Source: Parcubacteria group bacterium Gr01-1014_13 (lineage in GTDB: Bacteria > Patescibacteriota > Patescibacteriia > Magasanikbacterales > GWA2-37-8). Taken from it: a stretch of 64,000 bases of DNA. Positions 1,616 through 40,374 of this stretch are shown piece by piece. Position 1 is the first letter of the stretch, and each line of letters starts with the position of its first letter. The notes below the pieces were generated by a model that saw only the letters and a program-made list of their open reading frames with translations, was not told where the DNA came from and ran no database searches. The DNA is taken from NCBI GenBank assembly GCA_007376295.1, contig VMGB01000002.1, positions 2,843-66,842 on the forward strand, given 5' to 3'. Both the position numbers and the translations under genes were made by a program.

Positions 1616-1993
1616 GTGTTAGAAACAATTCCGCTCCTACCCCTACCATCATATGACTTCATTGCCGGTCTATTAACTAGTACCGGATCTTTTCTTTGGG
1701 TAAAACAAAAAAACTCAGAGGTACCGGTTTTTCAGCTCAAAATGCAAGCTGGGGATCATGAGCTACTTGAACTTGTCAAATCCAAGTTAAGAATTAAAGA
1801 AAGTATACACCAATATATACATCAAGGCCGTAACTACTCACTTTTGCTCATCAGAAGCAGAAAAACAATTGAAACTATACTTATACCTATCTTTGATGGG
1901 CGGTTATTTGGACAAAAACAGGTTCAATTTGATTTATGGAAAAAGAAATACTTTGAGAAGAAACTTGATTTTGTGTATAAAAAGCATTCTTAA
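1616..1993 (+). CDS. LAGLIDADG-like homing-endonuclease fold protein, probably catalytically degenerate
   Basis: The N-terminal FIAGLLTSTGSF matches the LAGLIDADG-x-F block, but the conserved acidic residues are replaced by Thr. It is about 125 aa, like the single-motif family, and is free-standing rather than inside an intron. Confidence 0.35.
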   Translation: MLETIPLLPLPSYDFIAGLLTSTGSFLWVKQKNSEVPVFQLKMQAGDHELLELVKSKLRIKESIHQYIHQGRNYSLLLIRSRKTIETILIPIFDGRLFGQKQVQFDLWKKKYFEKKLDFVYKKHS

Positions 1994-2140
1994 ATATATA
2001 AATGTTCCGTGTGAAACATTTATCTCAAAAAATGCCTTATACACTGGATAAATTGAGTTATTTGTATACTCTAGTCTATACAATTGTGCACTTAACCACC
2101 CATTTATACACAGAGTTATCCACTTTTATAAACACCCAGA

Positions 2141-2170
2141 CAAAAATAAAAGGAGCGTTTTTGCGCTCCA
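2141..2170 (-). terminator. intrinsic terminator of the Cys-rich three-gene operon
   Basis: GGAGCG/CGCTCC hairpin followed by a T-tract on the minus strand, immediately after the stop of 2184..2489. Confidence 0.6.
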
Positions 2171-2183
2171 GAATAAACAACTA

Positions 2184-2489
2184 TTACTCGTCAGGTACGT
2201 AATCCTTAGGCTTCTCAGAAAAAAGTTTCATAGAAGCAATGGCGTGGGTTTGATCGCTTAGATCTTCACCTGTTACAGCGTCAAATGGTCCCTCCGCAAC
2301 ATCTAACCAAACCTTGCCTTCACTAACAGCTACTACTTCATCCTTCTCATAAAGGCCGCGTATAGCAACCCAAACGGTTTGCCCCTTCTTAAATACAGGC
2401 TTTGCACTAGGTTTTGGCTTATTATTAGCCTTTTTCTTGCTTTTCGCCATTTTTACTTTAACCATCCCTTCTCTTTCATTGCCTTGCAT
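2184..2489 (-). CDS. small hypothetical protein with basic N-terminus and acidic C-terminus; last gene of the operon
   Basis: ORF overlaps the stop of the upstream gene (ATGG overlap at M9), suggesting translational coupling. The true start is probably the internal Met. Confidence 0.45.
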   Translation of the reverse strand: MQGNEREGMVKVKMAKSKKKANNKPKPSAKPVFKKGQTVWVAIRGLYEKDEVVAVSEGKVWLDVAEGPFDAVTGEDLSDQTHAIASMKLFSEKPKDYVPDE

Positions 2490-2692
2490 TCACCGCAACA
2501 ATCCTTAATCTCGGTAGTGAAGTCACTTTCCGAAATTTTGGTAGTCAAGGCATAGCAATGCTTACAATAGTAACACATGGCAGTCCCGGCGGGCAGACTA
2601 CTACTATCTATCATCTTAGGTTCATTTTCGTCACGCCTCTTCTTAAAGGCTTCTACAGCAAGCCTCTGTTCTTTTGATACAGTTTCTTTCAT
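2453..2692 (-). CDS. small Cys-rich (CxxCxxC ... CCGEC) zinc-ribbon-like protein
   Basis: 79 aa ORF with two Cys clusters. Stop/start overlaps its neighbours within an operon. Confidence 0.5.
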   Translation of the reverse strand: MKETVSKEQRLAVEAFKKRRDENEPKMIDSSSLPAGTAMCYYCKHCYALTTKISESDFTTEIKDCCGECKAMKEKGWLK

Positions 2693-3147
2693 TACGGACT
2701 CCTTTTTGGTTCAGAGATCTGGTATAGACGCTCTGATTGGTTGCAACAGACAACTTGACCTTCCACCCATGTTCCTGCCATATACGAGGTATTAGCCAAA
2801 TCATTAAGGTGCCGGTGCCGCGTACAATCACCCTTCATTTCAGACGGACAACAGGCACAAAGATCTTTAACTTCGGCATTAAAAAGTTGCGGCTGAAGAT
2901 TACCAATCGTAGGCTTCGTGGGATCAAACTCTTCACCACGATGACTGAAAATCCGAAGCTTTTGGTATGAGAAACACGTTTTGATGATATGTTCTTGCCG
3001 TACGCCAGGTGTCTTGAATTCACCAATTAAATCAGAAGCCATATGATAGGCACAACCTAATTCATTTCTGCAACTTTTGCAGAGTGACTGAATCTTATGC
3101 TCCTTAAGCGATTTAATATTCTGACATGTTTCTTCTGAATTTGACAT
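2692..3147 (-). CDS. Cys-rich hypothetical protein (151 aa, about 13 Cys)
   Basis: Strong RBS AGGAGG 6 nt upstream of the ATG at 3147. A consensus promoter lies upstream. First gene of a three-gene operon. Confidence 0.6.
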   Translation of the reverse strand: MSNSEETCQNIKSLKEHKIQSLCKSCRNELGCAYHMASDLIGEFKTPGVRQEHIIKTCFSYQKLRIFSHRGEEFDPTKPTIGNLQPQLFNAEVKDLCACCPSEMKGDCTRHRHLNDLANTSYMAGTWVEGQVVCCNQSERLYQISEPKRSP

Positions 3148-3174
3148 GTTGACCTCCTAAAGGTGTTGAAGGCA

Positions 3175-3203
3175 AATATAACGAAAAGGTGACGGCGTGT
3201 CAA
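3175..3203 (-). promoter_or_regulatory. sigma70-like promoter TTGACA-17-TATATT for the Cys-rich operon
   Basis: Minus-strand -35 TTGACA (3198..3203), 17-nt spacer, -10 TATATT (3175..3180), just upstream of the RBS and ATG at 3147. Confidence 0.6.
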
Positions 3204-3244
3204 GCGCTTGCCAACAGATAAATTTTGAGTTAAAATGCCCACAT

Positions 3245-3316
3245 TGCCCCTGTCGTTCAGTGGATAGGACAAGGGTTTCCTAAACCTTAAACCCAGGTTC
3301 GACTCCTGGTGGGGGC
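3245..3316 (+). tRNA. tRNA-Arg (anticodon CCT)
   Basis: Hand-folded cloverleaf: 7-bp acceptor (two G-U pairs), D stem GTTC/GGAC, anticodon stem AGGGT/ACCTT with loop TTCCTAA, T arm CCAGG-TTCGACT-CCTGG, discriminator A. Confidence 0.8.
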
Positions 3317-3329
3317 ACAGAAGGTCAAC

Positions 3330-3400
3330 TGGGCCTATGGTCTAGTGGCATGACGTAGCATTCGCATTGCTGAAACGCGAGTTCGATTCTCGCTAGGTCC
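3330..3400 (+). tRNA. tRNA-Ala (anticodon CGC)
   Basis: Acceptor GGGCCTA/TAGGTCC with the G3:U70 alanine identity pair. Anticodon loop TTCGCAT. T arm GCGAG-TTCGATT-CTCGC. Confidence 0.8.
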
Positions 3401-3407
3401 ACAAAAT

Positions 3408-4852: not shown

Positions 4853-5128
4853 ATGGTAACACAAGTAATCTTCAAAATCGATAAAAAACTCAAAGATAAA
4901 GCTATGGCCAAGGCGCAAAACGAGGGTATTGCTTTTGCTTCAGTTCTTAAATTAGCCACTAAAGCATTTGTGGATGGAGATTTTAATATCGGCCTCATTA
5001 ATAGAGAGCTTAGTCCGCGAACAAAAAAAATGCTTGCTCGTGAAATTAAAGATATAAAGGCCGGTAAAAACATGTCGCCAGCATTTAACAATGCAAAGGA
5101 TGCCATTGCTTATCTTAGGGGATTGTAA
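4853..5128 (+). CDS. dinJ: type II antitoxin, DinJ/RelB family (ribbon-helix-helix)
   Basis: N-terminus KIDKKLKDKAMAKAQNEGI...LKLATKAFV resembles the DinJ RHH. Sits directly upstream (3-nt gap) of a YafQ/RelE-like toxin. Confidence 0.65.
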   Translation: MVTQVIFKIDKKLKDKAMAKAQNEGIAFASVLKLATKAFVDGDFNIGLINRELSPRTKKMLAREIKDIKAGKNMSPAFNNAKDAIAYLRGL

Positions 5129-5131
5129 TTC

Positions 5132-5386
5132 ATGAAAATCGTCTACAAAAAACGGTTTGAAAAAAATTTCAAAAAACTTCCGCCAAATGTCGGGGAACAG
5201 TTTTATCAACGGTTAAACTTATTTTTGCAGGATAAATTTGATAAAACACTTAACAACCATTCGGTATATAAAGTTTTTCCTAATTGCAGAAGTATTAATG
5301 TAAATGGTGATTACCGGGTAATTTTTGAAGATCATGGAGACTTGATTGTATTTATCACTATAGACACTCATTCAAATCTTTACTAA
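5132..5386 (+). CDS. yafQ: type II toxin, RelE/YafQ family mRNA interferase
   Basis: 84 aa with ...GDYRVIFEDHGDLIVFITIDTHSNLY, typical of the YafQ/RelE C-terminus. Confidence 0.75.
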   Translation: MKIVYKKRFEKNFKKLPPNVGEQFYQRLNLFLQDKFDKTLNNHSVYKVFPNCRSINVNGDYRVIFEDHGDLIVFITIDTHSNLY

Positions 5387-5926: not shown

Positions 5927-6882
5927 GCTAGCTTCCCTACAAACAAATCAATCAGCAAAGACTGGTCCGCAAGACCGGTCTTTGTTTTTATATCAATTTC
6001 GAGTAACTGGTTATATATATCTTTTAATTTATCTAAAGAATATTTTTTTATAAACGGCAAACTTTTTTTCACCACAAACGGATGCAGATCCAACATTTTG
6101 GCCATGGTGTCACTAGTAATATTTTCCTGGCGATTAAATAAATCGCGCATGGAAATTAATATTCTAAATTGTCGCAGTGCCATTCCAAAAATCAAACCGT
6201 CTTCTTCACCCAAACGCCGCTGTTCTTCTATAAGCTTAAAAGCTAATTTGCGATTACCAACTACAATTGCATCCACCATGTTAAAAATATTGTCATCAAC
6301 TTTTTCTTCCAAAAAAAGTTGCACATCAGCCAAAGAAATTTCTTTTCCTTCGGCATAGGCTATCAGTTGATCAATTAATGAATCCGCATACCAAATATCT
6401 TTACCAACATTTTGCGTTAGATACGCTATAGCAGCCGGATTTATACTTCCTCCGCGCTGCTCTGCTTCAGTTTTTATCCAACCACTCAATTGCGCGCCAA
6501 CTAAATTAATAAATTCTTTGGCCCATTTTTCTTTGGCCAATAATTTTTGTAGTTCTTGAACCAATTTGGATTTACCCATTGATTCACTTTGATAAAATAC
6601 CACGATATTTTTTTCTGGAATCTTTTTTATTCCTTCTACCAATGATTCTAATACATCTGTATCTTTGGTAGACAAAATATTTTGTACCACAATCATTTTT
6701 TTCTCTGCTAAAAATGGCGTGGCCGTAATTTCATTCCAAAGCTGACTACTTTCTACTTTTTGGCCATCTAAAAAAACTACGTTCATCCCTTGAGGATCAC
6801 GTTCTTTTTTAAAGCGTTCTACGTTTTGACTCAAAAAATCCCGGCTTCGAAATGTGTCTTCGCCGTATATATAGATGATCAT
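5923..6882 (-). CDS. holA: DNA polymerase III delta subunit
   Basis: 319 aa. The N-terminus MIIYIYGEDTF is the delta-subunit hallmark, and the helical C-terminus matches. Confidence 0.75.
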   Translation of the reverse strand: MIIYIYGEDTFRSRDFLSQNVERFKKERDPQGMNVVFLDGQKVESSQLWNEITATPFLAEKKMIVVQNILSTKDTDVLESLVEGIKKIPEKNIVVFYQSESMGKSKLVQELQKLLAKEKWAKEFINLVGAQLSGWIKTEAEQRGGSINPAAIAYLTQNVGKDIWYADSLIDQLIAYAEGKEISLADVQLFLEEKVDDNIFNMVDAIVVGNRKLAFKLIEEQRRLGEEDGLIFGMALRQFRILISMRDLFNRQENITSDTMAKMLDLHPFVVKKSLPFIKKYSLDKLKDIYNQLLEIDIKTKTGLADQSLLIDLFVGKLA

Positions 6883-7901
6883 ACTAATGCTCTTTTAATC
6901 ATAAATTCCACTTCCGAATTTGTATTAATATATGTTATTTTTTTATCCGGATGAGAATTTTGATAAGCTCTAAAAATCTCATCAACAAATCCTTGACCCA
7001 CCATCTCTACTCTATCGAAATCCAAAACGATTTCTTTAAACTCATTCAAACCGGCTAACAAACGTCTGGCTTGCGAGCGAGAAATAAAACTGGTATCCAA
7101 GGTATAAAGTTTCACTTTTATTTCGGTCTTGGTAAAACCATGCTCTACTCCGGCAAAATGCGCAAAAATATTTGCCAATTTCTTATTTGTATTTATGTTA
7201 ATCTTAAAAAAAACTTTCGTGCCTCGTTTGTGGCGATGCGGACGGACAAAAATATCATTGATTATATTTTCTATAATCAATTCCGTTTTTTCACTGGCCA
7301 AAGAAAAGACGTCGGCAGCTTTGGAAGTAAAGAAAATACCTTCGCCGGAATGAAACTCGCGCGCCGTAGTTTGTTTGCCTTTAAGCAGATCCTGTATGGC
7401 CTCATGTTCATTTTTCAAATGGCGGCTTCTCATGATTTTGTTAAATATGCCCACGCCAAAATCATCTACAACAAACTCTATGGCATTTTCCGCCTTCTTA
7501 AATTCCACAATAATTTGCCGCGAACCGGAGTGATCAATGGCATTATTCAACATTTCCGTAAAAGCGTATTCCAAAATATTGACCGTTTGTTCAGGAATGT
7601 CTTTAAAAAAATCGGAATTGTATTTTATATCTTTAAAAACTTCATCCTCGTTCAAATCTTTATTTTGCAATTGCTTGCGCCAAACCAACCCTTCCAATCG
7701 AAAAGCTTCTTCGGTATAAGCGATATAACGCACCTGATTTGTTCGGCCAAGGCGCATTATTTTTTTTTGATTAATAACCTCTCTTAAAATTCGGTTAACA
7801 TAGGCTCTGCTAAAACCAGTTAAACCAACCAAATCGGCTATGCTAGCCTCTTTTTTGGTGTTTATAAATTTTATTATTTTTTCTTTAATACCTGGCGCCA
7901 T
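6879..7901 (-). CDS. HTH domain - GHKL ATPase (HATPase_c) - DUF4325/STAS-like protein
   Basis: N-terminal wHTH (ADLVGLTGFSRAYVNRILREV). N-box EMLNNAIDHS and G-box VDDFGVGI of GHKL ATPases. C-terminal IVLDFDRVEMVGQGFVDEIF matches the DUF4325 STAS-like module. Confidence 0.6.
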   Translation of the reverse strand: MAPGIKEKIIKFINTKKEASIADLVGLTGFSRAYVNRILREVINQKKIMRLGRTNQVRYIAYTEEAFRLEGLVWRKQLQNKDLNEDEVFKDIKYNSDFFKDIPEQTVNILEYAFTEMLNNAIDHSGSRQIIVEFKKAENAIEFVVDDFGVGIFNKIMRSRHLKNEHEAIQDLLKGKQTTAREFHSGEGIFFTSKAADVFSLASEKTELIIENIINDIFVRPHRHKRGTKVFFKININTNKKLANIFAHFAGVEHGFTKTEIKVKLYTLDTSFISRSQARRLLAGLNEFKEIVLDFDRVEMVGQGFVDEIFRAYQNSHPDKKITYINTNSEVEFMIKRALV

Positions 7902-29984: not shown

Positions 29985-31379
29985 ATGTCCAACCACGAAA
30001 TATGGCAAGCTGTTCTGGCAGAGCTAGAATTGTCTATTTCTAAACCAAATTTTGTAACTTGGTTTAAAAATACTGACATAATCTCCTACCAAGATGGCTG
30101 TGCTGTCGTGTGTGTTCCCAATGAATTTAATCGTGCCTGGATGGAAAAAAAATACAATCAAATGATTGTTAAATCTCTGGAGAGAGTAACCGGAAAACCG
30201 ATAAAAAAACTTGAGTATAAAATCTGTAGTATTAAAAATATCCCTGCTCAACAACCGGTTAGTCAACAGGAAAACAAAGTTGAAGAATTTTCCACTATTT
30301 CTACAAGTTCTGCTCCAAGTGAAGCAGCCGTTCCGCCGCGAATAGGTGAATTTGGTTTAAATCAAAAATATGTTTTTGAAACTTTTGTAGTTGGCGGCGG
30401 TTCCGAACTAGCTTATGCTGCCGCTCAAGCGGTGGTAAACAAACCCGGCGAAGCTTACAACCCGTTATTTATCTATGGCGGTGTCGGATTAGGTAAAACT
30501 CATCTTATCCAAGCTATTGGTAATCATATTTTAGCTGTCCGGCCCCAAACCAGTATCATGTATGCTAGCGCCGAGAAGTTTACCAACGACTATATCTCTT
30601 CAATGCGCGATGGTAGCGCTAAAAATTTTCAAAACAGATACCGCAACATCGATGTTTTACTTATCGACGACATTCAATTCATTTCTGGTAAAGAAAAAAG
30701 CCAGGAATCTTTCTTCCATACCTTCAATGACTTACACCAACAGAACAAGCAGGTGGTAATGACCTCTGACAGGCCACCAAAAGCCATTCCTGCCCTAGAA
30801 GACCGCTTAAAATCACGTTTTGAGTGGGGTATGATTGTAGATGTGGCTCCACCAGACCTAGAGACACGCATCGCTATTTTACAAAAAAAGTGTCTAGAAA
30901 AGAGTTTTGCTCTGGCCCAAAACATTTTACAAGTAGTAGCCGCCACCTTCCAACGAAACATCCGTGAATTAGAAGGTGCGTTAAACAAAATTATCGCTTT
31001 CCACCAACTAAAGGCTATGGAACCGACTCTAGAATCGGTAAAATCACTTCTTTCTAGTTTAGAAGTACGATCTATCCACCGTTCAGTCACACCCCAACAG
31101 ATTATAGATGCGGCTAGTCAGTTCTACGCGATAAATATTTCCGACCTACTTGGCCAAAGCAGAGAAAAAAAGTTCTCCTTCCCTCGCCAAATCATTATGC
31201 ACTTGATGAGAAAAGAACTTAGTATGTCTTATCCAGCCATCGGCAACGAACTTGGCGGCCGAGATCACACCACAGCTATGCACGCTGATAATAAAATAAC
31301 TCGTGAATCAGAAAATGATTTGAAATTGAAACAAGAAATAGAGTTAATAAAACAAAAATTGTATATAAACATGATGTAA
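29985..31379 (+). CDS. dnaA: chromosomal replication initiator DnaA
   Basis: 464 aa. AAA+ domain with GGVGLGKTHL Walker A. C-terminal DNA-binding helix. Confidence 0.95.
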   Translation: MSNHEIWQAVLAELELSISKPNFVTWFKNTDIISYQDGCAVVCVPNEFNRAWMEKKYNQMIVKSLERVTGKPIKKLEYKICSIKNIPAQQPVSQQENKVEEFSTISTSSAPSEAAVPPRIGEFGLNQKYVFETFVVGGGSELAYAAAQAVVNKPGEAYNPLFIYGGVGLGKTHLIQAIGNHILAVRPQTSIMYASAEKFTNDYISSMRDGSAKNFQNRYRNIDVLLIDDIQFISGKEKSQESFFHTFNDLHQQNKQVVMTSDRPPKAIPALEDRLKSRFEWGMIVDVAPPDLETRIAILQKKCLEKSFALAQNILQVVAATFQRNIRELEGALNKIIAFHQLKAMEPTLESVKSLLSSLEVRSIHRSVTPQQIIDAASQFYAINISDLLGQSREKKFSFPRQIIMHLMRKELSMSYPAIGNELGGRDHTTAMHADNKITRESENDLKLKQEIELIKQKLYINMM

Positions 31380-31660
31380 AAAGTTAACAACCTGGGGATA
31401 ACAAATGTATAAGTGTAAAAATTTATTAACTTTTCACACACTTACGAGATAAGTTATAAACACCAACTGAAAAAATAAATTTCTTTCCACACACTTTATA
31501 GATTTATCCTCAACAAGTTTTGCACTGATAAAAAAATAAAAAACGTTTAGATTACAGTAAAAAAATAGTTTTACCACCTTATCCACTCCATTATAGTTAC
31601 GATTATAATTTATAAATAAATATTTAGACAATATAACGATGCAAATAAAATGAATAAAAA
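31380..31660. promoter_or_regulatory. candidate oriC: AT-rich dnaA-dnaN spacer with at least 5 DnaA-box-like 9-mers and an A/T-rich unwinding tract
   Basis: Box matches: TTATCCCCA (reverse, 31393), TTATAAACA (31453), CTTTCCACA (31484), TTATCCTCA (31504), TTATCCACT (31578). An AT-run lies at 31530..31575. Confidence 0.5.
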
Positions 31661-31690
31661 ACCCGCTGGTTGGCGGGTAAGGTAACAAAT
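31660..31690 (-). terminator. intrinsic terminator of the GC-rich gene C
   Basis: CCCGCCAACCAGCGGG hairpin plus T-tract on the minus strand. Confidence 0.6.
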
Positions 31691-31707
31691 AACTAAATTG
31701 TGTGCTG

Positions 31708-32004
31708 CTAGCGGTGACGACCGTTGTTGACTCGCCAGTAGCTGGCGCCGCGACTCTCACGACGCAGATCGCCGTCGCGGAGCCTGGCATCCTTGCGGAG
31801 GCCGACGGTGCGCGGGGAGGTCTGAGGATTGAACTCCCTCAGGTAGATACCCCGTTCGGAGACGTCTTCCACGATGTTGTGGAAGTGGTCGTCCTCGATG
31901 TCTTCAATGAGCTTGAGGGTATGGTCGGGGATCCAGCGGAAGCGACGGTTGACCTGGAAGTTGCCTTCGGGGTCGGCGGACGCGATCATCGTATCCTGCA
32001 GCAT
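31708..32004 (-). CDS. GC-rich (about 60%, GC3-biased) foreign-looking gene for a 98-aa hydrophilic protein, inserted between dnaA and dnaN
   Basis: Codon usage (CTG/GAC/ATC/GCG) unlike the host. RBS AGGAAGG. Host-type consensus promoter and terminator. Confidence 0.55.
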   Translation of the reverse strand: MLQDTMIASADPEGNFQVNRRFRWIPDHTLKLIEDIEDDHFHNIVEDVSERGIYLREFNPQTSPRTVGLRKDARLRDGDLRRESRGASYWRVNNGRHR

Positions 32005-32056
32005 CTAGAGATCCTTCCTGTAAAAGTGTGGTTTTTAGCCAAAATGGCTGGAGCAG

Positions 32057-32085
32057 ATAATATCACAAAAACACGATTTTGTCAA
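32057..32085 (-). promoter_or_regulatory. consensus promoter TTGACA-17-TATTAT for gene C
   Basis: Minus-strand TTGACA 32080..32085, TATTAT 32057..32062. Confidence 0.6.
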
Positions 32086-32107
32086 TATATAACAATAATC
32101 TACCTAT

Positions 32108-33229
32108 ATGAAATTCTTTTGTACTAGAGAAAACCTATCTAAAGCCTTAGCGCTAGTAATCGGTATAGCTGGAAAAAGCATTAATTTGCCTATACTTAGC
32201 AATGTTTTGATCCGGGCTAGTGAACAAAAAGTGGAATTTATTGCCACCAACCTGGAATTGGCTATAGTTTCCAATTTACGGGCTAAAATAGAAGAACCAG
32301 GGATGTTTACTGTCCCAGCCAGAACGCTAAACGACTTTGTAAACCTGCTTTCTGATGAAAAAGTAGAATTAAGACTAAAGGATAATGAGTTAGAGGTGGT
32401 TAGTGGTAAGTCGGCTACAAAGATAAAAGGTACTCCAGCAGATGAGTTTCCGGTTGTGCCGGTAGTTGGAGAGGGTAAAGGATATTTAATCGATGCAGAG
32501 GCCTTTAAAAGAGGTTTAGGACAGGTATCACAGGCTGCGGCCAAGACCGAGATTCGTCCAGAGTTGGCTGGAGTACTGTTTTGTTTTAATGATGAACCAA
32601 ACACTCTTACTATGGCCGCCACAGACAGTTATCGTTTGGCTGAAAAAAAGATAAAACTATTACAAGGTGAAGAAAAGGCGAGAATAATAATCCCTGCCCG
32701 TACAGCGCAGGAGATAAATCATATCCTATCTTTGTCAAAGGGTATGGAAAATGAAAAAAATGTCCGTTTACTAGTTACTGATAGTCAGGTAGTACTACGC
32801 TGTAACGAGGTGGAGTTAGTTTCTCGGTTGGTAGAGGGGCAATATCCGGATTATACCCAGATTATTCCAAAAGAATTCAAAACAGTGGCCGAATTTTCAA
32901 CAAATCAAATTACTAAAGAGATAAAAGCGGCTAGTTTGTTTACTACGACCGGTGTAAATGCGGTGAATTTTGATTTTGACACTGCCGCTGGCGCTATTTT
33001 AATCTCTTCTACATCTACCCAGACCGGCGAACACAAATCTGAAGTTACGTCGGATATTAAAGGAGATAAAAATAATATATTACTCAACCATAGATATGTT
33101 TTGGATGGTTTAGCAAATATCGATACGGAAAACTCTTTATTGAAAGTGATTAACGCAGACAGTCCTTGTGTTTTTGCGCCGAAGGAAGATAAAAATTTCG
33201 TTTATATTGTGATGCCGATTCGGCAGTAG
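32108..33229 (+). CDS. dnaN: DNA polymerase III beta sliding clamp
   Basis: 373 aa, three-domain clamp. MKFFCTRENLSKAL N-terminus. Follows dnaA. Confidence 0.95.
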   Translation: MKFFCTRENLSKALALVIGIAGKSINLPILSNVLIRASEQKVEFIATNLELAIVSNLRAKIEEPGMFTVPARTLNDFVNLLSDEKVELRLKDNELEVVSGKSATKIKGTPADEFPVVPVVGEGKGYLIDAEAFKRGLGQVSQAAAKTEIRPELAGVLFCFNDEPNTLTMAATDSYRLAEKKIKLLQGEEKARIIIPARTAQEINHILSLSKGMENEKNVRLLVTDSQVVLRCNEVELVSRLVEGQYPDYTQIIPKEFKTVAEFSTNQITKEIKAASLFTTTGVNAVNFDFDTAAGAILISSTSTQTGEHKSEVTSDIKGDKNNILLNHRYVLDGLANIDTENSLLKVINADSPCVFAPKEDKNFVYIVMPIRQ

Positions 33230-40212: not shown

Positions 40213-40374
40213 AAAGATATTATAGCATTTTTTTCACCCTTTGTCAACTATTTGTATACACTAGTATATACAAATATATTTTAGCTGTAATTAGCTAAAA
40301 TTTCCACAGTTTATCCACATTCCCTATAGGTTATACCCAAAGTTATCCACAGTTGTATACACTAGTGTATACAA
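40171..40374. promoter_or_regulatory. regulatory hub: three paired palindromic TGTATACA operators (40171..40190, 40253..40272, 40353..40374) and two perfect DnaA boxes TTATCCACA (40311..40319, 40343..40351) plus weaker boxes
   Basis: Each operator is two self-complementary 8-mers separated by 4 nt (TTGTATACActagTGTATACAA is a perfect 22-bp palindrome). The boxes lie in the same orientation between divergent promoters. Confidence 0.6.
40219..40247 (-). promoter_or_regulatory. perfect consensus promoter TTGACA-17-TATAAT for unit E
   Basis: Minus-strand TTGACA 40242..40247, TATAAT 40219..40224. Confidence 0.6.

What the first reader, a model, noticed from the sequence alone, without database searches (positions are those of the whole stretch)
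2141..3203. Compact operon of three small Cys-rich proteins with consensus promoter, strong RBS and translational coupling
The operon is promoter TTGACA-17-TATATT, then AGGAGG, then a 151-aa protein with about 13 Cys (several CxxC/CC pairs). Next comes a 79-aa CxxCxxC...CCxxC protein whose stop overlaps the start (ATGG) of a 100-aa basic/acidic protein, and then a terminator. None matches a family I recognise. The density of Cys and the tight coupling suggest a metal-cluster or redox module of unknown function.
Basis: seen in the sequence. Interest (0 to 1): 0.55.

Follow-up and report, generated by a model that had tools for sequence, protein, structure and literature searches.

The report
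Orphan double-module cysteine metalloprotein operon
A real, strongly signalled three-gene operon in a Parcubacteria genome whose first gene founds a rare, uncharacterised family of probable two-metal-site proteins; the three genes are not a conserved unit and the third has no cysteine at all.

Summary
The operon is real and lies on the minus strand: promoter TTGACA-17-TATATT, AGGAGG, three tightly packed ORFs, terminator. The genome is Parcubacteria group bacterium Gr01-1014_13. Corrections to the finding: gene1 has 11 Cys, not about 13. Gene2 has 6 Cys, of which only 4 are conserved (CxxC...CxxC). Gene3 has none. The one-base stop/start overlap (TAATG) is between gene1 and gene2.

Gene1 is the core. 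It has no Pfam, NCBIfam, PADLOC or PDB sequence match. It has about 25 relatives among billions of proteins, all stand-alone proteins of 133-157 aa. Eight Cys are invariant and a ninth is present in 23 of 24 sequences. The protein is an internal duplication of a roughly 50-aa module, CxxC-x5/7-C-helix-strand-C. It ends in a near-invariant, flexible peptide, LxQIxEP. A confident AlphaFold model (pLDDT 89) has no Foldseek match in PDB or BFVD.

I infer two Cys4 metal centres, Fe-S more likely than Zn, and a docking tail.

Gene2 and gene3 occur only in a narrow subclade. L007 carries gene1 alone between the same promoter and terminator. Deep-branching relatives instead show gene1-(GNAT)-RimK-family ligase-YchF. 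Interest is moderate.

The parts
3175..3203 (-). Sigma-70-type promoter: TTGACA (3203..3198), 17-nt spacer, TATATT (3180..3175)
   Evidence: 11 of 12 matches. Both hexamers are conserved in L004 and L007, and the -35 also in L010, L011 and L012.
3153..3158 (-). Shine-Dalgarno AGGAGG, 5 nt upstream of the gene1 ATG
   Evidence: (A)GGAGG is conserved in 6 of 7 orthologous loci.
2692..3147 (-). Gene1: 151-aa protein (G01um101413_516) with 11 Cys. It is a tandem duplication of a CxxC-x5/7-C-helix-strand-C module and has the C-terminal peptide RLYQISEP.
   Evidence: dN/dS is 0.11-0.19.
2699..2704 (-). Internal SD (AAGGAG) for gene2, lying inside the end of gene1. The gene1 stop and gene2 start share one base (TAATG).
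   Evidence: junction sequence AAAGGAGTCCGTAATGAAAG.
2453..2692 (-). Gene2: 79-aa protein (G01um101413_515). It has an N-terminal helix (LAVEAFKKRR) and a 4-Cys zinc-ribbon-like motif, C43xxC46-x19-C66xxC69.
   Evidence: dN/dS is 0.10 against L004.
2184..2450 (-). Gene3: 88 aa from ATG 2450 (alternative starts 2465 and 2489). It has no Cys, a Lys-rich N-terminal tail, a small beta-rich domain and an acidic C-terminus.
   Evidence: The AlphaFold model is unreliable (pLDDT 46).
2142..2169 (-). Intrinsic terminator: GGAGCG-CAAAAA-CGCTCC followed by TTTTATTTTT
   Evidence: An equivalent hairpin follows gene1 directly in L007.

Best explanation
The region is a real, highly expressed operon of a Parcubacteria (CPR) chromosome.

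Its functional core is gene1, a stand-alone protein of about 150 aa. It was made by internal duplication of a roughly 50-aa module: (I/V)xxLC-xx-C-x5/7-C, then a helix, then a strand ending in Cys.

The two modules supply 4 + 4 invariant cysteines: C23, C26, C32, C58 and C97, C100, C108, C135. N-terminal C8 is a ninth, almost invariant Cys. I infer that these build two Cys4 metal centres in a pseudo-symmetric fold. The CxxC-x5-C-plus-distal-Cys pattern, in a helical context, is the pattern of [4Fe-4S] sites in Wbl, EndoIII/MutY and AddB/Cas4-type proteins, so I favour Fe-S over Zn.

The flexible, near-invariant C-terminal peptide LxQIxEP followed by a few mostly basic residues is inferred to dock the protein onto a conserved partner. 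The protein would then act as a cofactor-dependent (redox- or metal-sensitive) adaptor or regulator, not as an enzyme.

Gene2 (a 4-Cys zinc ribbon) and gene3 (Cys-free, with a Lys-rich tail and a small beta domain, so possibly nucleic-acid binding) are lineage-specific add-ons co-translated with gene1. They are not obligatory subunits.

Shown: operon anatomy, coding status, Cys conservation, the duplication, tail conservation and variable neighbours. Inferred: metal identity, tail docking and the regulatory role.
For: Operon signals: conserved across loci.

Purifying selection: dN/dS is 0.10-0.19.

Family size and shape: 7 clusters in 5.8 billion sequences, and 19 matches in 1.84 billion representative sequences, 18 of them real. 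Full-length members are 133-157 aa.

Conservation: 8 Cys are invariant and C8 is present in 23 of 24 sequences. The motif L141/Q143/I144/P147 is at least 90% conserved.

Internal duplication: hhalign of the N-half against the C-half gives probability 93.9%, E = 1.5e-7.

Structure: the AlphaFold model has pLDDT 88.8 and pTM 0.79, with a low-confidence tail at residues 139-151.

No known family or fold.

Gene1 stands alone between the same promoter and terminator in L007. It has unrelated downstream genes in L010-L012, L016, L018, L021 and L023.

Gene2 has four invariant Cys. Gene3 has none.
Against: - No metal, redox or binding data exist. Zn(Cys)4 sites cannot be excluded.
- Consensus expression signals fit an abundant structural protein or electron carrier as well as a regulator.
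- No partner has been identified for the tail.
- The AlphaFold DB could not be searched, so 'no known fold' rests on PDB and BFVD only.
Confidence: 0.5

Rival explanations
1. Gene1 is a protein substrate or carrier for a RimK/LysX-family ATP-grasp ligase. It would work like ribosomal protein S6 (RimK) or the Zn-binding carrier LysW (LysX). A small metal-stabilised globule presents a flexible conserved C-terminal tail, and the tail's conserved Glu (E146) or its C-terminus is ligated to an amino acid.
For: In all four deep-branching lineages with enough flank, gene1 is the first gene of gene1-(GNAT, a 219-aa unknown, or nothing)-RimK-family ligase-YchF, often with overlapping stop and start codons. 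These lineages are L016/17, L018, L021/22 and L023/24.

The ligase matches TIGR00768 rimK_fam best and LysX second.

S6 in L016 and L018 does not end in Glu, so S6 is not an obvious substrate there.

The gene1 tail is flexible and near-invariant.
Against: - No ATP-grasp ligase or YchF lies within the 64-kb window, or next to gene1 in the window-like clade.
- The tail ends in variable basic residues, not an acidic terminus like S6 or LysW.
- Synteny in these loci extends to unrelated genes (TPR protein, S6-SSB-S18). Adjacency may therefore reflect conserved gene order, not function.
Confidence: 0.15
2. Gene1 works like a WhiB-like (Wbl) [4Fe-4S] transcription factor. A cluster-dependent fold would bind the RNA polymerase sigma factor and sense NO, O2 or redox state.
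For: C8-x14-C23-x2-C26-x5-C32 has the same local spacing as WhiB1 (C9, C37, C40, C46), and gene1 is of similar small size (PMC6282962).

There is a weak PHROG WhiB-like hit (E = 0.033).

There is local similarity around A..(K/D)LCxxCP.

Basic residues follow the conserved C-terminal motif.
Against: - There is no G[V/I]WGG motif.
- Pfam gives no hit.
- hhalign probability against WhiB1 is 1.5%.
- Only 1-2 of 24 members touch WhiB-like PHROGs, and only weakly.
- Wbl proteins are exclusive to Actinobacteria and their phages.
- The Foldseek PDB search returned no WhiB structure.
Confidence: 0.1
3. The three proteins form an obligate metal-cluster or redox complex.
For: There is tight translational coupling (TAATG, and a 2-nt gap or 13-nt overlap) under one promoter and one terminator.

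The trio recurs in L004. A gene2+gene3 pair lies on the P0011/P0014 contig.
Against: - Gene3 has no Cys.
- L001 lacks gene3, and L007 lacks gene2 and gene3 while keeping the promoter and terminator.
- More distant gene1 homologues never have gene2 or gene3.
- The gene2 relative P0012 sits in an unrelated phage-like contig without gene1.
Confidence: 0.1
4. It is a mobile, defence or toxin-antitoxin-like cassette inserted next to tRNA genes and a homing-endonuclease gene.
For: - The genes are small and coupled, with patchy presence of gene2 and gene3.
- tRNA-Arg and tRNA-Ala lie on one side and a LAGLIDADG ORF on the other.
- Gene2 has a homologue in a phage-like contig.
- Gene1 and gene2 evolve faster than their neighbours.
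Against: - There are no PADLOC or PHROG hits, and no hits in viral contigs or phage genomes.
- GC content (0.42-0.43) is close to the window mean of 0.40.
- Gene1 keeps the same chromosomal synteny (RmuC-tRNAs-gene1-LAGLIDADG-TPR) in four lineages.
- dN/dS is about 0.1-0.2.
Confidence: 0.07

Closest known systems
WhiB-like (Wbl) [4Fe-4S] proteins of Actinobacteria (e.g. M. tuberculosis WhiB1)
   Same: Both are small, stand-alone, mostly helical proteins. The Cys spacing is C-Xn-C-X2-C-X5-C, with CxxCP in the second module. A short conserved motif plus basic residues lies near the C-terminus.
   Different: - There is no G[V/I]WGG motif.
- There is no significant profile or fold match.
- Gene1 has two modules and 8-9 conserved Cys where Wbl has 4.
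- Gene1 contains beta-strands.
- It is found in Parcubacteria, not Actinobacteria.
LysW amino-group carrier protein / ribosomal protein S6 as substrates of the RimK/LysX-family ATP-grasp ligases
   Same: Gene1 is a small protein with a Cys-bound metal globule (as in LysW) and a flexible conserved C-terminal tail. Deep-branching gene1 homologues sit directly upstream of a RimK/LysX-family ligase. The features of LysW and S6 are from my own knowledge and from the abstract of PMC10375531.
   Different: - The tail is LxQIxEP plus basic residues, not an acidic EDWGE or EE terminus.
- Gene1 is three times the size of LysW.
- No lysine or arginine pathway genes are nearby.
- No ligase lies in the window.
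Clostridial-type 2x[4Fe-4S] ferredoxins
   Same: Both arise from tandem duplication of a Cys-rich module, giving two 4-Cys sites and pseudo-twofold symmetry. Both have strong expression signals.
   Different: - There is no CxxCxxCxxxCP motif and no Fer4 Pfam hit.
- The module is about 50 aa with a helix and a strand, whereas the ferredoxin module is about 26 aa.
- The pI is neutral (7.5), not acidic.
- No redox enzymes are nearby.
Small C4 zinc-ribbon proteins (e.g. bL33, DksA/TraR-type fingers), for gene2
   Same: Gene2 has CxxC-x19-22-CxxC with four invariant Cys after an N-terminal helix. There is a weak PDB sequence hit to bL33 (E = 0.76).
   Different: No significant match to any Pfam, NCBIfam or PDB family. 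Only 5 homologue clusters are known.

Membership tests
WhiB-like (Wbl) family | Four invariant Cys with C-Xn-C-X2-C-X5-C spacing | tested here: met
   C8-x14-C23-x2-C26-x5-C32. C23, C26 and C32 are invariant and C8 is present in 23 of 24 sequences. WhiB1 has C9, C37, C40 and C46.
WhiB-like (Wbl) family | Universally conserved G[V/I]WGG turn after the last Cys | tested here: not met
   The motif is absent from alignment A2. The feature is taken from PMC6282962.
WhiB-like (Wbl) family | Significant profile or fold similarity to Wbl proteins | tested here: not met
   No Pfam hit. hhalign probability against WhiB1 is 1.5%. PHROG WhiB-like hits are E = 0.033 in 1 of 24 members and E = 0.93 in another. 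The Foldseek PDB search returned no WhiB entry.
WhiB-like (Wbl) family | Binds a [4Fe-4S] cluster and sigma-A region 4 | not testable with these tools
   This needs anaerobic purification with spectroscopy, and interaction assays.
2x[4Fe-4S] ferredoxin (Fer4) | Two CxxCxxCxxxCP motifs and a Fer4 profile match | tested here: not met
   The motifs are CxxC-x5-C and CxxC-x7-C. No Fer4 family appears in the Pfam scans of all 24 members.
LysW-type amino-group carrier protein | Protein of about 54 aa with an acidic C-terminal EDWGE-like tail ending in Glu | tested here: not met
   Gene1 is 151 aa. Its tail is RLYQISEPKRSP, and the termini across the family are variable and mostly basic. The LysW features are from my own knowledge.
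LysW-type amino-group carrier protein | Encoded next to a LysX/RimK-family ATP-grasp ligase | tested here: inconclusive
   Met in L016/17, L018, L021/22 and L023/24. Not met in the window, nor in L001, L004, L007 and L010-L012.
C4 zinc ribbon (gene2) | Two CxxC knuckles, about 15-25 residues apart, invariant in homologues | tested here: met
   C43xxC46-x19-C66xxC69 is invariant in 6 sequences. The other two Cys of the window protein are not conserved. Zn binding itself is untested.
Known anti-phage defence or TA systems | Match to a PADLOC model or a toxin/antitoxin Pfam family | tested here: not met
   No PADLOC hit at E <= 10. No relevant Pfam hit.

The most novel reading that the evidence does not exclude
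Gene1 defines a new fold of tandem-module Fe-S protein, apparently restricted to CPR bacteria. Its invariant C-terminal peptide would be the handle or acceptor for a RimK/LysX-family ATP-grasp ligase: a third kind of protein-tail ligation system beside S6-RimK and LysW-LysX, here coupled to a redox-sensitive cofactor. In the window's clade this protein would have been re-partnered with a zinc-ribbon protein and a Lys-rich protein.
Probability: 0.12. Interest if true: 0.7.

Novelty: new variant of a known kind. Interest (0 to 1): 0.4.

Why it matters
CPR bacteria make up a large part of bacterial diversity, and their genomes are full of small proteins of unknown function. This family is cleanly defined. 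It is confidently modelled, has no PDB or BFVD fold match, and has 8-9 conserved cysteines, a clear internal duplication and a near-invariant tail motif. It is also small enough for direct biochemistry. If it carries Fe-S clusters and docks onto a RimK/LysX-type ligase or another conserved partner, it would reveal a regulatory or protein-modification mechanism specific to Parcubacteria. If it is only a Zn-stabilised scaffold, it remains one more lineage-specific orphan.

Tried and rejected
- **Family libraries.** Pfam, NCBIfam, PHROGs and PADLOC scans of all three proteins gave nothing significant. The same held for all 24 members of the gene1 family.
- **PDB by sequence.** Searches with single sequences and with the family profile gave nothing significant.
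- **Foldseek on the gene1 model.** Against PDB and BFVD, the best E was above 1 and TM was 0.23 or lower.
- **Gene3 structure.** The AlphaFold model with 3 sequences failed (pLDDT 46), so I ran no fold search on it.
- **Wbl membership.** Rejected.
- **Phage or mobile origin.** There were no hits in IMG/VR for any gene or in INPHARED phage genomes.
- **Wider locus recovery.**
  - The genome-contig scan returned only one short contig, identical to L012.
  - The metagenome scan returned only loci already in hand.
  - Wide alignments were too divergent for the pattern-based locus finder.
- **Spurious hit.** P0029, a 1398-aa repeat protein, was a spurious hit in the profile search.
- **Literature.** Searches found nothing on this family.
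- **Rfam.** Only the two tRNAs were found near the operon.
- **RimK, YchF and GNAT homologues.** A tblastn search of the window found none.

Full report
**1. Observation**

The feature lies on the minus strand. Reading 5' to 3' on that strand, it consists of:
- TTGACA (3203..3198), a 17-nt spacer and TATATT (3180..3175);
- AGGAGG (3158..3153), followed 5 nt later by the ATG at 3147;
- gene1, 3147..2692, 151 aa;
- gene2, 2692..2453, 79 aa;
- gene3, ending at 2184;
- a GC-rich hairpin and T-run at 2169..2142.

The gene1 stop and the gene2 start share one base (TAATG), with AAGGAG 7 nt upstream. The gene2 stop is 2455..2453.

Gene3 can start at 2489, 2465 or 2450. The L004 orthologue starts MAKTKKK, which matches ATG 2450 (MAKSKKK), so I prefer the 88-aa form.

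The count of promoter-like sites in the region is not above shuffles (4 against 3.4). However, this promoter and the SD are conserved in orthologous loci, which is the better evidence.

Cys counts are 11, 6 and 0 for the three genes. Against a background of 0.76% Cys in long ORFs of the window, gene1 (P = 3e-8) and gene2 (P = 3e-5) are strongly enriched.

**2. Source and reality of the genes**

Gene1 and gene2 are identical to G01um101413_516 and _515 of Parcubacteria group bacterium Gr01-1014_13.

dN/dS is 0.11-0.19 for gene1 and 0.10 for gene2. Gene3 has 74-78% identical homologues. All three are therefore real coding genes.

Their GC content (0.42-0.43) is close to the window mean of 0.40.

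Gene1 and gene2 are less conserved than their neighbours. Protein identities to the window:

| Protein | Identity to orthologues in L001, L004 and L007 |
|---|---|
| Gene1 | 63-79% |
| Gene2 | 43-67% (L001 and L004 only) |
| RmuC | 70-94% |
| HolA | 88-95% |

**3. Gene1 is the core**

It has no match in Pfam, NCBIfam, PADLOC or PDB sequences.

The family is very small. There are 7 clusters among 5.8 billion sequences. There are 19 matches among 1.84 billion representative sequences, one of them spurious. Apart from one truncated 82-aa sequence, the real matches are stand-alone proteins of 133-157 aa.

In a 24-sequence alignment:
- C23, C26, C32, C58, C97, C100, C108 and C135 are invariant;
- C8 is present in 23 of 24 sequences;
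- C134 is present in 14 of 24;
- the C-terminal motif L141-x-Q143-I144-x-(E)-P147 is at least 90% conserved, while the rest of the protein drops to 22-30% identity.

hhalign of the N-half against the C-half aligns residues 12-58 with 86-134 at 93.9% probability (E = 1.5e-7). The protein is therefore a tandem duplication of a module: (I/V)xxLC-xx-C-x5/7-C, then a helix, then a strand ending in Cys.

AlphaFold2 gives a confident model (pLDDT 88.8, pTM 0.79). Its secondary structure mirrors the two modules, and the tail has low confidence. Foldseek finds nothing in PDB or BFVD (best E above 1).

**4. Gene2 and gene3**

Gene2 homologues (5 clusters) keep only C43, C46, C66 and C69, plus the helix LAVEAFKKRR. 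This is a C4 zinc-ribbon-like protein.

One relative, P0012 (49% identity), sits in a high-GC contig with endonuclease VII and a phage-type methyltransferase, and without gene1.

Gene3 has a Lys-rich N-terminus, a beta-rich core of about 45 aa and an acidic end. L004 has a 205-aa version that shares the N-terminus and the core (44% identity, E = 2e-7). Its AlphaFold model was unusable. The weak hits to SH3 and ProQ-C-like domains are not significant.

**5. Conservation of the unit**

The synteny RmuC-tRNA(Arg)-tRNA(Ala)-gene1-...-LAGLIDADG-TPR protein holds in the window, L001, L004 and L007.

| Locus or lineage | Genes downstream of gene1 |
|---|---|
| Window | gene2, gene3 |
| L004 | gene2, long gene3 |
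| L001 | gene2 only |
| L007 | none; same promoter and a terminator about 50 nt after the gene1 stop |
| L010, L011, L012 (54-57% identity) | unrelated genes: a 200-aa protein, YchF, a PEP-utilising-like enzyme |
| L016/17, L018, L021/22, L023/24 (25-32% identity) | (GNAT, a 219-aa unknown, or nothing), then a RimK-family ATP-grasp ligase, then YchF |

In the deep-branching lineages, stop and start codons often overlap. The ligase scores best against TIGR00768 rimK_fam, with LysX second.

The trio is therefore confined to a narrow subclade. No RimK, YchF or GNAT homologue lies in the 64-kb window.

**6. Mechanism**

Shown: a conserved, strongly signalled gene for a duplicated 4+4(+1)-Cys protein with an invariant flexible tail.

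Inferred:
- There are two Cys4 metal centres.
- I favour [4Fe-4S] because CxxC-x5-C plus a distal Cys, in a helical setting, is the pattern of Wbl proteins and, from my own knowledge, of EndoIII/MutY and AddB/Cas4 clusters. Zn sites more often use two CxxC knuckles. This is not decisive.
- The tail is most simply read as a short linear docking motif for a conserved partner.

The best candidate partner, on gene order in deep-branching relatives, is the RimK/LysX-family ligase or YchF. Both known protein substrates of this ligase family, S6 and LysW, present flexible C-terminal tails, and LysW is a Cys-bound Zn protein (own knowledge). S6 in L016 and L018 does not end in Glu.

Against this:
- the gene1 tail is basic at its end;
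- the window clade lacks an adjacent ligase;
- synteny in these loci extends to unrelated genes, so adjacency may only reflect conserved gene order.

I therefore keep the ligase link as a rival and as the novel case.

**7. Comparison with known families**

- Wbl: the Cys spacing is met. GVWGG, profile and fold similarity, and taxonomic range are not met. Gene1 is not a member.
- Fer4 ferredoxins: the motif is not met.
- LysW: size and tail are not met, and ligase adjacency is met only in part.
- Defence or TA systems: no hits.

Gene1 is an unclassified family. In kind it is another small Cys-ligated metalloprotein, but with its own fold as far as PDB and BFVD show.

**8. Verdict**

Novelty: a new variant of a known kind. 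Interest is moderate (0.4). The family is cleanly defined, testable, and has an intriguing tail and ligase link. Set against that, its function is unknown, the family is rare, and the 'three-protein module' does not hold.

Noticed in passing
window 2040-2125 (between the operon terminator and the 3' end of the LAGLIDADG ORF): A non-coding block of about 70 bp (GGATAACTCTGTGTATAAATGGGTGGTTAAGTGCACAATTGTATAGACTAGAGTATACAAATA on the minus strand) is almost invariant in L001, L004 and L007, although the flanking genes differ. It contains several DnaA-box-like 9-mers (TTATACACA at 2104, TTATCCACT at 2116). It has no Rfam match. It could be a DnaA-box cluster or the binding site of the adjacent LAGLIDADG protein.
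   Followed up: partly
window 1616-1993 (+): A free-standing 125-aa LAGLIDADG_1 ORF (Pfam E = 5e-7) sits at the same syntenic position in four lineages. It is 77-89% identical between them, so more conserved than gene1. This suggests a domesticated homing-endonuclease-like DNA-binding protein, not a mobile one.
   Followed up: partly
window 29985-33229: dnaA (29985-31379) and dnaN (32108-33229) flank a 728-bp gap with DnaA-box-like sites at 31393-31587. The cumulative GC-skew minimum falls at about 30-32 kb. This is the probable chromosomal origin.
   Followed up: partly
window 40311-40351: Two perfect DnaA boxes (TTATCCACA at 40311 and 40343) lie beside an 18-mer that resembles the conserved block at 2104-2121 (2 mismatches). 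This may be a second DnaA-box cluster.
   Followed up: no
window 4853-5386 (+): A ParE/YafQ-like toxin ORF (5132-5386, Pfam E = 4e-7) is preceded by a 91-aa ORF with no Pfam hit. This is a likely type II toxin-antitoxin pair inserted between rmuC and rpsT. The syntenic loci L001, L004 and L007 show no such pair there.
   Followed up: partly
L013 5001-5291 and L014 4494-4784: A gene2 relative (P0012, 49% identity over 69 aa) lies in a high-GC, phage-like contig with endonuclease VII and a phage methyltransferase. It is closer to the window's gene2 than the syntenic L001 orthologue is (40-43%). This hints at horizontal movement of this small zinc-ribbon gene.
   Followed up: partly
L016 9119-11036, L018 8981-10898, L021 8490-10377, L024 1120-3037: A RimK/LysX-family ATP-grasp ligase gene overlaps the start of ychF in four divergent Parcubacteria-like lineages. 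S6 in L016 and L018 carries a long C-terminal extension ending in ...EGNIL or ...EGKIV, not in Glu. The substrate of the ligase is therefore unclear.
   Followed up: partly
window 3208-3402 (+): A promoter-like site, TTGCCA-17-TAAAAT (3208-3236), lies back-to-back with the operon promoter. It precedes tRNA-Arg(CCT) at 3246-3318 and tRNA-Ala(CGC) at 3331-3402.
   Followed up: no
window 6879-7901 (-): A 340-aa protein combines a histidine-kinase-like ATPase domain (HATPase_c_2) with a C-terminal STAS-like DUF4325. It overlaps the holA start by 4 nt. Its function is unknown.
   Followed up: no
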